Shown here piece by piece: positions 16,965-41,485 of a stretch of 64,000 nucleotides of DNA (positions are counted from its first letter, which is position 1; each line of letters begins with the position of its first letter). The stretch is from Chiloscyllium plagiosum (taxonomy: Eukaryota). Below the pieces are notes generated by a model. That model did no database searches, was not told where the DNA came from, and was given only the letters and a program-made list of their open reading frames with translations. The position numbers and the translations under genes are program-made. The stretch is taken from the NCBI RefSeq assembly GCF_004010195.1, contig NC_057736.1, forward strand, positions 22,338,831 to 22,402,830, in the 5' to 3' direction.

Positions 16965-17106
16965 GTGGTGATGATTTGGAGATGCCGGTGTTGGACTGGG
17001 GTGCACAAAGTTAAAAATCACACAACACCAGGTTATAGTCCAACAGGTTTAATTGGAAACACACTAGCTTTCGGAGCACCGCTCCTTCATCAGGTGATTG
17101 TGGAGG
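16965..17106 (-). mobile_element. Short terminal fragment of a second Penelope-like family
   Basis: Contains a minimal hammerhead; its flanking sequence is unrelated to family A. PLE assignment is inferred from the hammerhead type. Confidence 0.6.
17062..17096 (-). ncRNA. Minimal hammerhead ribozyme motif (PLE family B)
   Basis: Minus strand: CAC-CTGATGA-A-GGAGC-ggt-GCTCC-GAAA-GCTA-GTG. Intact core, 5-bp stem II, 3-bp stem I, palindromic AGCT stem III. Confidence 0.75.
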
Positions 17107-17291
17107 TTACAGTGCATTAATTAGAATTATGCATTCAATTTCCAGGACAAAGCAACTCCTTTCAATAGAAATAATCAAGAGTTAGATCCATTGCAAAATG
17201 TAGATGCTTATCAAAAAGAACAAACTTGGACATGCAACTAGCCCGGAAGGGCTATCAGAAATGAATGAGAGTATTTTTGAAGTAGCCAATA

Positions 17292-18060
17292 CAGTGAAAA
17301 CTTGAGTATCCGAACAAGATGGGCAGACACTATTTCATTTGGATAATTGATTATTCAGAAAATCGATTAAATGCTCGGAGTTTTAAAGTCTGCTCCCCAT
17401 TCAGGAGACTGCAGCAGCAGATATTGTGCAACACCCCGCCCCCCCCACTCCCGTCCAGCACTGCCCCCCAATCCGGTCCAACCCCACCCCCGTCCCCAAC
17501 ACAAAGCACACGAGCTCCCCCTCCCCCCACTACAGGGTAGCCGGACTGTACACCAAGACTGCTGCTGCCTGTGTGGGGTAAGTCTGAAATAGTACACACA
17601 CAACTTTTTGACAGGTTCCACGTTTGCCCTGTACAGGACGATGGTGGAGAGATTATACCTGGGAAGCAGGGGTGGGGGGTTAGGGTACACCCNNNNNNNN
17701 NNNNNNNNNNNNNNNNNNNNNNNNNNNNNNNNNNNNNNNNNNNNNNNNNNNNNNNNNNNNNNNNNNNNNNNNNNNNNNNNNNNNNNNNNNNNNNNNNNNN
17801 NNNNNNNNNNNNNNNNNNNNNNNNNNNNNNNNNNNNNNNNNNNNNNNNGTTTACTTCCCTGGAGTGAGAGAGGGAGGAGAGGGAGGAGAGGGAGGAGAGG
17901 GAGGAGAGGGGAGTCAGTCATTTGGAGACGGTGCTGGTTTAATCACTGCAAACAAAAGACGCGATCACTGTTGGAAACACGTCCTTGATGTAAATGTTTC
18001 TATCAGGACCTCGAGATCTCTTTCGGATAACTGGTAATTCGGATAATCGAAGTTCCTCTG
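17292..18060. mobile_element. Non-autonomous Tc1/mariner (pogo/Tigger-like) DNA transposon spanning an assembly gap
   Basis: Imperfect TIRs CAGTGAAAACTTGAGTATCCGAA / TTCGGATAATCGAAGTTCCTCTG flanked by TA on both sides; N-run and (GGAGAGGGA)n inside. Confidence 0.6.
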
Positions 18061-18427
18061 TATTTATTACCATGTTCAATTTTCCTCAGGGTTTGTATCT
18101 TTTCAAATATTAAGCAATCTAATGCTTAGCAAATAGACAATAATTGTGCTCAAACAAAAATTAATTCTTAAACATCCTGCTCTATTGTATCCCAACCATT
18201 ATTTATGTAATAGAGAACTCAAAAATTTAAAAAGTTCTAGTATCCTTTTTGAAATCTGTCACACCCTATTAAAGGGGTTACATTTCCTCAGCTCTTCACA
18301 GAGTATCATAATTGACCACATTAAATTAAATATCTTTGGTTGTTGGAACAAACTCTGTTTTAAATATCCAAATAGAATAAGTTCAACTTGATTTTAGACT
18401 TTGCCTCTTCCTTTTTCAGTTTGGTAT

Positions 18428-18591
18428 GCCCATAGTGTTCAGGGATGTGTAGGTTACATGCATCAGTAAGGGCTAAATATAGGATAATAGGGTAGGGGAA
18501 CGGGTCCAGATGGGTTACTCTCCAGAGGGTTGGTGTGGACTTGCTGGGCCAAAAGGCCTGTTTCCACATTGTAGGGAATCTATTCTATTCT
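18428..18591 (+). mobile_element. 5'-truncated HE1-like SINE
   Basis: 3' half: gggttggtgtggacttgctgggccaaaaggcctgtttccaca plus (TATTC)n tail. Confidence 0.75.
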
Positions 18592-18904
18592 ATATACATA
18601 TTAATCTTAATATTTTGTCAAATCCACAAGACGGTTAGAAAAAAGCAAAGTTCCCTTGCACACACATATAGTTTACTTAATTTATATGTTAAAAGGAATT
18701 ATACAATCATGAAAAGTTAAATTAAAAAAAAGACCTCATCTTAGCACAAGCATTTGAAATACAAAATATACAACAAACATTCTACTATATTCAGTTGGAT
18801 CATGAGAAAGCAGGCCTCTACAAACACTGATAAACACAAGAATTACTAATACCTAACAGACCAATATCCATACATTGAATTAGATAACAAAAGGTTTTAG
18901 ATAT

Positions 18905-38431: not shown

Positions 38432-39809
38432 TACCCTTTCACTGTTGCTTCAATGCAAGTGATCACATCTGTAGCAAGTAAGTAGTCTGTAACTTGATGG
38501 GCAGTTCTTTTCAAAATTTCTCAATTTCACATAAGGAGGGTGATTTTTCTCTGATTGGTCGCACACTGAGTTTTGGGTATTTTCAGCATTGCTTGCAAAA
38601 CCATAGATTCTGGGGTGTCAAGATGTTGATGAGACCAGAGACCTGGATCAGGAGATTTGCTTGTGAGGCCAAAGAACTGGAGGTGGAAGGGTTTGATAAT
38701 TATCAATGCAGTCAAAGAATTGCCCAACCTCCAACTATGCTCCTTGCAAAATTCCACTTGTCAATACTTCCCTCATGATTTACCTTTCAACCCCACTGAT
38801 GCTCTGCATGTTGCCCCACTCCACATTGTTCCCATCACACAAACATACACACCCCTTCCCTACCATTTCCACTCAGATCCTCTTTCCACACCCCTTTCTA
38901 AACACATTCAACATATCCTCAAGTCAACCTCACTCCTTTACCAATTCAGCAGCCCCATTTCCCATCTGTTATGCCTCTGGTCAAAAGTCTTCTCACCAAT
39001 CTGGTGCCCCATCACCAATTCAGTAGCCCCTCTGCACTATATCCCCCACACATCCCCAGCACTGCTGCTAGCTCTTCTTGAGTTGCACGCCTGCTTGGTC
39101 CTACTGCTGCCCACCCATAGATCCCTGCACATTTAGCAACATTTTAGCCCCCTTTCAGATTCAAAGGCATGGTACAAGCCAGTCAATCCTCCTTGTGGCT
39201 GAGTGAGCAGCATAAAGTGCAGCATATCCACCACCCCACCACCCACATGTACAGCCACTAAAAATATTTGGACAGAAGCAAAAGGAAACTGCCCATAAGT
39301 TTTCCCAGTTGCTACCGAGAAATATGAGACAAATGAAATCCCGGAAAGCAAACACATAGGACTTGGGCAAAAGCATAAAACTGCAGGTCACCTGGTTAGA
39401 ATATTTGTATCATTATGTAATGAGGCACTTAACCAAGAGAATTCTACATAAACTAAAAGGATGTTATGTGTTTTGATTGAGAGAAACAACTCCTGCTTTT
39501 CTGTTATTGAACTTGTTATTTTGCATTCTGGTTTGTCTAATTTGGTATTGCCTGCCTCCACTACAAAAAATAGGGTCAGAAATTTAATATTTTGTTACTG
39601 CATTGGAAAGGTTACCCTTCAGAAGAGAGATTAAACTCAGGTACAGTTTGCATGTTTTGGTGAAATAAGATCAACTAGCTGCTCATCTAATTTCTGTTGT
39701 GAAAATACTAGATGCACTTACACTGAACCATACAATTATTTATCACCAATGGAGGAAATTGATACTTTTCTGAAGGACACTCGAGTTATTATTATCTATA
39801 GAATCCATC

Positions 39810-40137
39810 TACCAGGCCTGCTGTCAAGGAAAGGCCGCCAGCATTCTCAAAGAGCCATCCCACCCTTTTAATGTTTTTCCACAACCTCTACCATCAGGGA
39901 GAAGGTACAGAAGCCTAAACACATACACCAGCCAGTTTCAAAACAGTTTCTACCCTATTATTGTTGGAATACTGAATGGACTCACATTCACCTGTACCTG
40001 TGTTTTTGTTTTTGCCGCTATTTACCTATTATTTACTTATCTATGCTACTTAACTATGTGATCTGCCTGTATTGCTTGCAAGACAACGCTTTTCACTGTG
40101 CCTTGGTACACGTGACAATAAATTCAATTCAATTCAA
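39810..40137 (+). mobile_element. Rex1/Babar-like LINE 3' end
   Basis: KAASILKEPSHP..F.QPLPSGRRYRSL..T..F.NSFYP-like remnant; tail aataaa(ttcaa)n. Confidence 0.6.
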
Positions 40138-40483
40138 TATAATTCAAAGTACTGCAGAAAGGGTAGAAGCAACAGATTCGATAATAGAATTCAAAAGATA
40201 ATTGATTTAAGTACATGAAAAGAAGCTATGACAGGGTTCTGTGGAAAGAGAAAGTGAGTGCAGTAAATTGAATAACTCAACAAAAAGTTAGCACAATGGA
40301 CCAAATAGGCTCCTTCTGTGCTGTATCATTCTGTGAGGAGATACATTATCCTCAAAGTGAATCCTTCTCTCCCACTAATCCTATGGTACACATGATACTT
40401 TAAAATAACATTGTTAAATACAATGAGATGCATTTGTTTTCTTCAGTAAATACAAAGAGTAAAAAGGGAATTTGAATACACAC

Positions 40484-40556
40484 CTCCTGAGTAATATCCC
40501 CACGCATATGTAAATCGACTGGTTACCCAGATGATGCCAAGCAAAGAAGCAGTGAT
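40484..40556 (-). CDS. MGST3: MGST3-like exon 3 (ITASLLGIIWVTSRFTYAWGYYSG)
   Basis: 73-nt exon with AG/GT ends; G..W...R..YA.GYY MAPEG motif. Confidence 0.9.
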
Positions 40557-41265
40557 CTGAAATATTGAATAACTAGATTGTCACTATTCATTGCATGTAA
40601 TATGAATTAATATTAAGAAACTGCAATGAAGTATATCCTAATGAAATACAAATATCATATGAAAATACTTCGCAAATGAGGCTGGTCAAAAATTAATATC
40701 ATCTCTCTGGTTGTTCTAAATGTCACTGCACTTCAAAGCATGTAAAGTACTTTGAGATGATTTTTAAGGTGTATCCCAATGTTATACAAATGGTAGAATG
40801 CAGGAGAAACCTCTTTACCTCAAGATCTATAATAATGTTTAAATACAGTAACATAGTTTTTTTATTAGGCAATGCACATGCTGACTTGCCCATGGTCGAG
40901 AGGACAGAAAGCATTAATATTTGTTGTTTCCAAGGGGGAAAGAATCACTAGTGTACCAACATTTCCCACAGTGAAACTGAGGCATGCTAGTTTGAGTGGC
41001 AGTGAACATAAGGAAAACATTTTTAGTTAGCTGAAGTTAGATGACTCAGGTAATAGTTCGAGGATTTTTTTTGCATTACTGTATTTAGAAATAAAGATAA
41101 ATTATATAATTCAAGAAAAATATTTGTGGAAACACCAGGATAATACTTAGAAACTCATGAATTTTAGTCCTTTGGATAAAAGTTAAAGAGTTCTCACACT
41201 GTCAGTAACACAAGACTAGTGGCCTTACTGGCTAAAAGGTGGCATTAAAAAAGGACAGAATATTG

Positions 41266-41485
41266 ACTGAAAACAACAAATGTTGGAGATCACAGTGGTT
41301 CAGAAGGCATCCATAGCAAGCTAACATTTCGAGTCTAGATGACTCTTCATCAGGGCTGAAGTGAAGTATGGAAGGTACAGCATTTACTTGCTCTCTCTCC
41401 ATGGATACTGTCTGACCTGCTGTGATCTCCAGCATTTGTTGTTTTCAAATTATATTCCAGCATCTGCAGTAATTTGTTCCTCACA
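41266..41485. mobile_element. Short inverted-repeat Penelope-like element (third family)
   Basis: aaaacaacaaatgttggagatcacag vs ctgtgatctccagcatttgttgtttt inverted arms around a hammerhead motif. Confidence 0.65.
41319..41357 (-). ncRNA. Minimal hammerhead ribozyme motif (PLE family C), partly decayed
   Basis: Minus strand AGCC-CTGATGA-A-GAGTC-atcta-GACTC-GAAA-TGTT-AGCT. Confidence 0.6.

What the first reader, a model, noticed from the sequence alone, without database searches (positions are those of the whole stretch)
17062..41357. Three distinct Penelope-like families each carry a minimal hammerhead ribozyme with covarying stems
Seen: the core CUGANGA-A-[stem II]-GAAA-[palindromic stem III]-UH occurs in three elements with different flanks. 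Family A has GGGC/GCCC with ACGT (best copy 36807-36842; others near 1551, 15115, 26610, 32920, 50480). Family B has GGAGC/GCTCC with AGCT (17062-17096). Family C has GAGTC/GACTC (41319-41357). Stems differ in sequence but keep pairing, and all share an extra A after the core. Known: Penelope-like elements carry minimal hammerheads that can cleave as dimers through palindromic stem III. Inference: this genome holds a dense, multi-family ribozyme-retroelement system (about 10 whole or partial motifs in 64 kb). The PLE-hammerhead link is not new; its diversity and density in a shark may be poorly described.
Basis: partly seen in the sequence, partly recalled or inferred. Interest (0 to 1): 0.8.

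Follow-up and report, generated by a model that had tools for sequence, protein, structure and literature searches.

The report
Penelope retrotransposon hammerheads in a shark
The motifs are real minimal hammerhead ribozyme folds at the ends of three Penelope-like jumping-gene families, a known pairing; this shark-like genome holds over 110,000 intact-looking copies, many of them short stubs that begin at the ribozyme's first base, likely because the element's RNA starts there.

Summary
Observation confirmed; interpretation partly. All cited motifs exist (B and C on the minus strand): 8 strict hits against 0.085 in shuffles. Relatives of all three families lie just 3' of RT + Zn-linker + GIY-YIG frames, so they are Neptune-type Penelope-like elements. 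The core, extra A, palindromic stem III and multi-family diversity were all described by Cervera and de la Peña 2014. Exact intact motifs genome-wide: A 93,870, B 18,482, C 360, about 12 times the highest count in that paper (different method). Most copies are decaying stubs: after insertion the core mutates as fast as its flank, same-strand pairs are not in excess, and only two window copies are fully intact. Stem I, not used in my search, pairs in 17 of 18 positions across six families. Copy 5' ends do not cluster at the predicted cut; they pile up at the first base of stem I, about 30 nt after a TATA-like box in B and C. This suggests run-off copying of uncut RNA that starts at the ribozyme. 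Cleavage is untested. The scan found this kind many times elsewhere in this genome.

The parts
36497..36935 (+). Family A young copy: 5'-truncated 3' end of a Neptune-type PLE (end of GIY-YIG frame plus pseudo-LTR)
   Evidence: identical over 439 bp to 9 other loci; tblastn to A endonuclease region 96% at 36497-36652
36807..36842 (+). Family A minimal type I hammerhead, fully intact; predicted cut after 36838 (GUC)
36775..36781 (+). AT-rich box about 36 nt before the core (weak, non-canonical TATA candidate; inferred)
   Evidence: sequence; failed my TATA regex in 43 of 44 long A copies
16971..17106 (-). Family B stub: pseudo-LTR end only, starting about 10 nt before the ribozyme
17062..17096 (-). 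Family B minimal hammerhead, intact, 3-bp stem I; predicted cut after 17065 (CUA)
41266..41386 (-). Family C stub, arm carrying the ribozyme
41319..41357 (-). Family C minimal hammerhead, partly decayed (ATGT for ACGT; first stem I pair lost); predicted cut after 41323 (GUU)
41387..41475 (+). Inverted second arm of the family C insertion; the pair is flanked by a 9-bp target duplication
900..1124 (-). A-type end with deleted core; divergent partner of 1150-1642
1150..1642 (+). A-type end with GIY-YIG remnant; core intact, stem II broken
5891..6029 (-). A-type stub starting at the ribozyme front edge; core decayed
14699..15240 (+). A-type end with GIY-YIG remnant; core and stem II intact, palindrome CpG-decayed
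26551..26641 (-). A-type stub starting at the front edge; palindrome CpG-decayed
31735..31831 (-). A-type stub starting at the front edge; decayed
32820..33097 (-). A-type end; divergent partner of 33195-33923
33195..33923 (+). A-type end with Zn-linker and GIY-YIG remnant; stem II broken
45935..46056 (-). A-type stub, decayed
48359..48545 (.). Head-to-head pair of young A-type stubs joined inside the ribozyme; 16-bp target duplication
50425..50510 (-). A-type stub starting at the core, inserted in a G-rich minisatellite
51192..51267 (+). A-type stub truncated inside stem II

Best explanation
These are minimal type I hammerhead motifs in the pseudo-LTR of three Neptune-type Penelope-like retrotransposon families, and most genomic copies are short, neutrally decaying stubs that were likely reverse-transcribed from uncut RNA whose 5' end lies at the first base of the ribozyme. 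Shown: motif, link to RT and GIY-YIG frames, copy numbers, neutral decay, 5' ends piled at stem I, 3' ends about 115-120 nt after stem II with an optional 30-40 nt tail. Inferred: a TATA/initiator promoter in the pseudo-LTR starts the RNA at stem I; the element's RT primes internally about 115 nt downstream, as shown for the anole Poseidon element, and runs off the RNA end, giving 95-130 nt stubs, often as head-to-head pairs. Inferred: the fold is kept by selection in source elements and can probably cleave slowly as a dimer through the ACGU or AGCU palindrome, removing a leader of about 32 nt, but cleavage is not a step in making insertions.
For: Chance excluded: 8 vs 0.085; reversed-pattern controls 0. 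ORF link: A (Pfam GIY-YIG, 33), B, C; CX4CxxC linker in all three; Craig 2021 says Poseidon lacks it. Stem I, not used to define families, pairs in 17 of 18 positions over 6 families; 2 of 720 permutations reach this, slid registers give 3-7. Neutral decay: core 29/590 vs flank 90/1652 mismatches in 59 copies; subfamily-level variants 0 of 12 core vs 10 of 38 flank columns, p=0.09. 5' ends: 32 of 111 mapped copies end at -10..0, hazard 0.047/nt vs about 0.004 upstream and 0.009 around the cut; 2 of 118 start at the cut. 9,959 intact A motifs have a purine directly before stem I where elements have C or T; in 30 such loci 11 are inverted pairs and 12 of the other 19 have 7-12 bp target duplications at the junction. 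TATA-like box at -36..-40 in 52 of 57 long B copies and at -35 in 6 of 7 long C copies. Frangieh 2024: RT starts 111-118 nt after the ORF start at stem II; ribozyme mutants still insert.
Against: No RNA data were obtained, so start site and cleavage are untested. Family A has no canonical TATA (1 of 44 long copies matched; only a weak TTTAT box). D. virilis Penelope has a TATA-less internal promoter. No untemplated cap G: the G before stem I lay inside the target duplication in 8 of 8 cases. Breakpoints are also raised 2-5 fold inside the ribozyme, so hairpin-driven template switching contributes. The core-vs-flank subfamily test is not significant. No complete pLTR-ORF-pLTR copy was recovered; long young copies abut assembly gaps. 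Long B and C copies were fetched by similarity and are not independent; A, C, D and F are relatives, so the permutation count overstates significance.
Confidence: 0.72

Rival explanations
1. Dimer cleavage processes tandem PLE transcripts into unit-length or circular RNA that is then the template for insertion (Cervera 2014 model).
For: Palindromic stem III and covarying stem I are kept across families; dimers of PLE motifs cleave weakly in vitro.
Against: Only 2 of 118 A-type copies start at the cut and there is no peak there; same-strand pairs within 4 kb are at chance (A 7 vs 7.8; B 1 vs 1.3), while opposite-strand pairs are in excess for B (10 vs 0.34 within 2 kb); anole ribozyme mutants still insert.
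Confidence: 0.12
2. The fold is kept as a protein-binding or RT-pausing structure, not for catalysis, and the 5' pile-up comes from stalling or fold-back at the hairpin, not from an RNA end.
For: 46 of 111 copies have an inverted partner directly upstream and breakpoints are raised inside the motif; monomer folds lack stem III; HHRs might simply ride along (Craig 2021).
Against: The peak is at the far 5' edge, where RT has already melted both stems; non-inverted stubs with target duplications end at the same base; only N7, loop II and stem identities vary between families, the pattern expected for a catalytic core.
Confidence: 0.13
3. The stubs are a separate SINE-like or retrozyme family that only borrows a PLE enzyme.
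For: Half of A-type copies are under 150 nt with a sharp 5' end and target duplications; animal retrozymes derive from pLTRs.
Against: Stubs are colinear with, and match the subfamilies of, ORF-bearing copies; they are not in tandem arrays; a stub lacks the upstream promoter box.
Confidence: 0.03

Closest known systems
Minimal hammerheads (min-HHR) in pLTRs of metazoan Penelope-like elements (Cervera and de la Peña 2014, PMC4209133; Lünse et al. 2017, not read, cited through PMC6765202)
   Same: Core, extra base between 9 and 10.1, G10.1-C11.1 pair, palindromic 15.2-16.2, short stem I, several families per genome, mostly solo copies, opposite-strand pairs. Turtle and lamprey motifs in its supplement have the same layout.
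   Different: No shark found in the text parts read or in supplement file 2; counts there are about 4,000 (coelacanth) and 9,000 (Xenopus) against at least 112,712 here, by a different method. The pile-up of 5' ends at stem I and the TATA spacing were not in the parts I read.
Neptune clade of EN+ Penelope-like elements (Arkhipova 2006, as summarised in Craig et al. 2021, PMC8557442)
   Same: RT, CX2-5CxxC linker, C-terminal GIY-YIG with CCHH-type residues, strong 5' truncation, inverted 5' copies, optional 30-40 nt tail.
   Different: Neptune against Nematis was not resolved by a tree; no full tandem copy assembled.
PAc, Poseidon element of Anolis carolinensis (Frangieh et al. 2024, PMC11167929)
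   Same: 3' end about 111-120 nt after the start of stem II; two 3' ends defining a tail; uncut RNA appears to be the template.
   Different: Other clade (no Zn linker); its ORF starts at stem II, which I could not show here.
Animal non-LTR retrozymes (Li et al. 2026 preprint, 10.64898/2026.07.22.740005)
   Same: Type I hammerhead, derived from PLE pLTRs, reported in one chondrichthyan genome.
   Different: Retrozymes are tandem arrays; these copies are dispersed solos or inverted pairs.

Membership tests
PLE minimal type I hammerhead (Cervera 2014) | CUGANGA ... GAAA ... UH core around stem II | tested here: met
   12 of 12 core positions in the A, B and C cited copies
PLE minimal type I hammerhead (Cervera 2014) | Extra base between 9 and 10.1; G10.1-C11.1 pair | tested here: met
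   extra A in 169 of 174 descriptor hits in loci (loci chosen by similarity); G-C in A, B, C
PLE minimal type I hammerhead (Cervera 2014) | Palindromic stem III without a loop | tested here: met
   ACGT (A), AGCT (B, 60 of 60); C and D ACGT with CpG decay, window C copy ATGT
PLE minimal type I hammerhead (Cervera 2014) | Short stem I closing the fold | tested here: met
   17 of 18 pairs over six families
PLE minimal type I hammerhead (Cervera 2014) | Located in the pseudo-LTR of a PLE | tested here: met
   3' of RT/GIY-YIG frames in all three families
PLE minimal type I hammerhead (Cervera 2014) | Two motifs flanking one ORF in tandem pLTRs | tested here: inconclusive
   no complete copy recovered; gaps beside long copies
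PLE minimal type I hammerhead (Cervera 2014) | Self-cleavage as a dimer | not testable with these tools
   needs in vitro assay
Neptune-clade PLE | RT followed by C-terminal GIY-YIG endonuclease | tested here: met
   Pfam GIY-YIG for A; RT and GIY-YIG families on B homologues; translations
Neptune-clade PLE | CX2-5CxxC Zn linker (absent in Penelope/Poseidon) | tested here: met
   seen in A, B and C translations; criterion
Neptune-clade PLE | 5' truncation, inverted copies, optional 30-40 nt tail | tested here: met
Neptune-clade PLE | RT phylogeny with Neptune rather than Nematis | not tested
   no clade-labelled references at hand
Animal non-LTR retrozyme | Head-to-tail tandem units each with a hammerhead | tested here: not met
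   same-strand neighbours at chance level among the first 100 A and 100 B motifs of contig C1

The most novel reading that the evidence does not exclude
In these elements the ribozyme is the first 32-36 nt of a TATA-driven transcript. It cuts only when two element RNAs meet, so it acts as a concentration-sensing decapping switch that limits the element's own expression; only uncut RNA is copied, and the 100,000-plus intact stubs form a pool of trans-acting partners in host transcripts.
Probability: 0.1. Interest if true: 0.7.

Novelty: new member of a known kind. Interest (0 to 1): 0.33.

Why it matters
The kind is known, so the motif itself is no surprise. Two things have value. The copy number (one intact motif per 32 kb) is about an order of magnitude above published counts that I saw. 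And the insertion boundaries bear on an open question, what PLE hammerheads do: thousands of natural insertions show that uncut RNA beginning at stem I was copied, agreeing with the anole in vitro result and arguing against cleavage as a step in making the template. A very young subfamily gives a ready construct for testing.

Tried and rejected
Rfam scan: 0 hits; no information, as minimal motifs need not reach family thresholds. Peak of 5' ends at the cut site: not found. Untemplated cap G before stem I: G was 61 of 100 against 41% expected, but it belonged to the target duplication in 8 of 8 cases or to an inverted arm; rejected. Splice junction at stem I, as in D. virilis: upstream flanks of stubs are unique, no shared exon; rejected. 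Excess of tandem pairs: none. Selection on copies after insertion, for or against the core: none seen. Search for a full-length young A element: three steps upstream ended at assembly gaps. Unconstrained dimer folding did not give the hammerhead dimer; nearest-neighbour models do not score the core, so this is uninformative. Family E was seen by eye but my pattern caught none, so it was left out of the six-family count. RNA evidence was not obtained. Lünse 2017 is not held. Literature searches for hammerhead or Penelope with shark terms gave no paper on shark PLE hammerheads; most subscription journals, Repbase and Dfam were not searchable, and one supplement file of Cervera 2014 and the preprint's supplements were not visible.
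Full report
OBSERVATION. The three cited motifs are present at the stated coordinates; B and C are on the minus strand. A descriptor of core, optional extra base, stem II of 4 or more pairs and GAAA finds 8 motifs in the window against a mean of 0.085 in 200 dinucleotide-preserving shuffles. 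Rfam finds nothing at gathering score. Blast with natural copies finds 14 A-type ends, one B, one C and a D-like remnant. Only 36811 (A) and 17093 (B) are fully intact. The C copy has ATGT for ACGT and has lost the first stem I pair.

WHAT CARRIES THEM. The A copy at 36497-36935 begins with the last 52 codons of a GIY-YIG frame and is identical over 439 bp to nine other loci, so this subfamily moved very recently. Longer A relatives hold RT, a CX4CxxC linker and GIY-YIG. B motifs lie roughly 0.6-1.4 kb after a frame with RT, the same linker and GIY-YIG in 15 of the 23 protein-selected loci that my script printed, of 30 fetched; the loci reach only 1.5 kb past the match. Three old C copies extend 1.5-2 kb upstream into a broken RT and endonuclease frame. 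A and B share 39% identity over 325 RT residues; A and C about 46-54%, and they share the region 3' of the ribozyme. The nearest named proteins to B come from sharks (Chiloscyllium and Hemiscyllium 84-92%, Heptranchias 77%, Scyliorhinus 76%, Mustelus 72%); a turtle protein is at 40%. The linker marks Neptune or Nematis and excludes Poseidon (Craig 2021, passages). Neptune is my call because it is the linker-bearing clade reported in vertebrates; no tree was built.

ABUNDANCE. Exact patterns give 93,870 A, 18,482 B and 360 C motifs in 3.56 Gb, reversed controls 0: one per 32 kb. A blind sample of 100 stretches of 10 kb (971,627 non-N bases) held 27 A and 7 B exact motifs and 118 A-type 3' ends, 21 of them fully intact, which extrapolates to about 430,000 ends, some from older relatives. 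The window has 14 by the same method against 7.7 expected.

IS THE FOLD REAL? Families were defined by core and stem II only. Their majority letters then form stem I in 17 of 18 positions over six families (A n=89, B 60, C 24, D 9, F 2, G 5), with different pairs in each; 2 of 720 permutations reach this and slid registers give 3-7. A, C, D and F are kin, so this is not a probability. Among 59 randomly sampled A copies chosen without the core, subfamily-level variants occur at N7, loop II and 10 of 38 flank columns but at 0 of 12 core columns (p=0.09), while private mismatches are equal in core (29/590) and flank (90/1652). So the fold looks selected in source elements and neutral in inserted copies.

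HOW THE COPIES WERE MADE. If cut RNA were copied, 5' ends would fall at the cut (+28 from the core start). Only 2 of 118 do. Mapping against 59 ORF-bearing copies, 32 of 111 mapped copies end at -10..0: hazard 0.047 per nt against about 0.004 upstream, 0.021 at 0..10, and 0.006-0.010 from +10 to +36. Genome-wide, 9,959 intact A motifs have a purine directly before the first base of stem I, where elements carry C or T. Of the first 30, 11 are head-to-head pairs and 12 of the other 19 have 7-12 bp target duplications within one base of the junction, so these are true insertion ends. All 10 D copies start at -1..-6. A TATA-like box lies at -36..-40 in 52 of 57 long B copies and at -35 in 6 of 7 long C copies, about 30-32 nt before stem I; A has only a weak TTTAT box and matched my pattern in 1 of 44. 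The 3' ends lie about 114-120 nt after the start of stem II in A, B and C, with a second end 30-40 nt shorter. In the anole Poseidon element RT starts internally 111-118 nt after the same landmark, ribozyme mutants still insert, and no RNA reads ended at the cut (Frangieh 2024, part 1 of 4 and passages). Inference: the RNA starts at stem I, RT primes about 115 nt downstream and runs off the uncut 5' end. A cap-derived G was tested and rejected. A TSS inside the pLTR is known for Penelope and Chlamys-3 (passages), though Penelope's promoter is TATA-less.

DIMERS. Among the first 100 A and first 100 B motifs of contig C1, same-strand neighbours within 4 kb are at chance (7 vs 7.8; 1 vs 1.3); divergent opposite-strand pairs within 2 kb are in excess for B (10 vs 0.34) and borderline for A (4 vs 1.4). 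Opposite-strand partners cannot form a hammerhead dimer. No complete tandem element was recovered; long young copies sit beside assembly gaps.

COMPARISON. Cervera and de la Peña 2014 (parts 1-2 of 4 read; supplement file 2 searched, file 1 not searchable) report minimal hammerheads in vertebrate Xena, Poseidon and Neptune elements, the extra base, the palindrome, several families per genome, about 4,000 motifs in coelacanth and 9,000 in Xenopus, no monomer activity and low dimer activity. No shark term was found in supplement file 2. Lünse 2017 was not available; dimer cleavage is taken from the Weinberg 2019 review (passages). Li 2026 (part 1 of 5 and passages) found tandem retrozymes and PLEs in one chondrichthyan genome. 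The 2017 review was read in passages. Searches pairing hammerhead or Penelope with shark terms found no direct description (listings only). Earlier notes of this scan report the same kind in many windows of this genome (174 notes fit); one named the front-edge boundary, which I then measured. None held all the words on TATA and start site.

VERDICT. New member of a known kind; interest 0.33. The unusual parts are the copy number and the boundary statistics that point to an RNA starting at the ribozyme. Cleavage and transcription remain untested.

Noticed in passing
window 28669-29226 (+): Intronless open frame for a U1 snRNP C-like protein (Pfam zf-U1, E 7e-23); likely a retrocopy.
   Followed up: partly
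window 53434-54318 (+): Uninterrupted 294-codon Arg/Ser-rich frame; no Pfam hit. A likeness to RSRP1 is from recall only.
   Followed up: partly
window 47582-48040 (-): Short hydrophobic segment resembling MGST3/MAPEG by recall; Pfam and PDB searches did not support it.
   Followed up: partly
window 3414-3929, 5627-6025, 18905-19714, 23789-24241, 34390-34977, 46396-46761, 63435-63821: Fragments of CR1/L2-type LINE frames (label from recall).
   Followed up: no
window 50035-50590: G-rich minisatellite interrupted by the A-type stub at 50425-50510.
   Followed up: no
window 28018-28126: Inverted pair of old D-like PLE ends without the ribozyme.
   Followed up: partly
L175, L189 (D); L263, L184 (E); L072, L263 (F); L071, L133, L162, L237 (G): At least four more hammerhead families in this genome. 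G has an extra U and a 6-bp stem II and a different 3' region; its clade was not tested.
   Followed up: partly
G000:C1:136150315-136152991 (L333-L345): Tandem array of 13 or more 213-bp units made from the N-terminal part of the family A frame, with no ribozyme seen in L345.
   Followed up: no
L359-L388: Target duplications of A stubs often end in G and are followed by AT in the target, suggesting microhomology with the element's first bases.
   Followed up: partly
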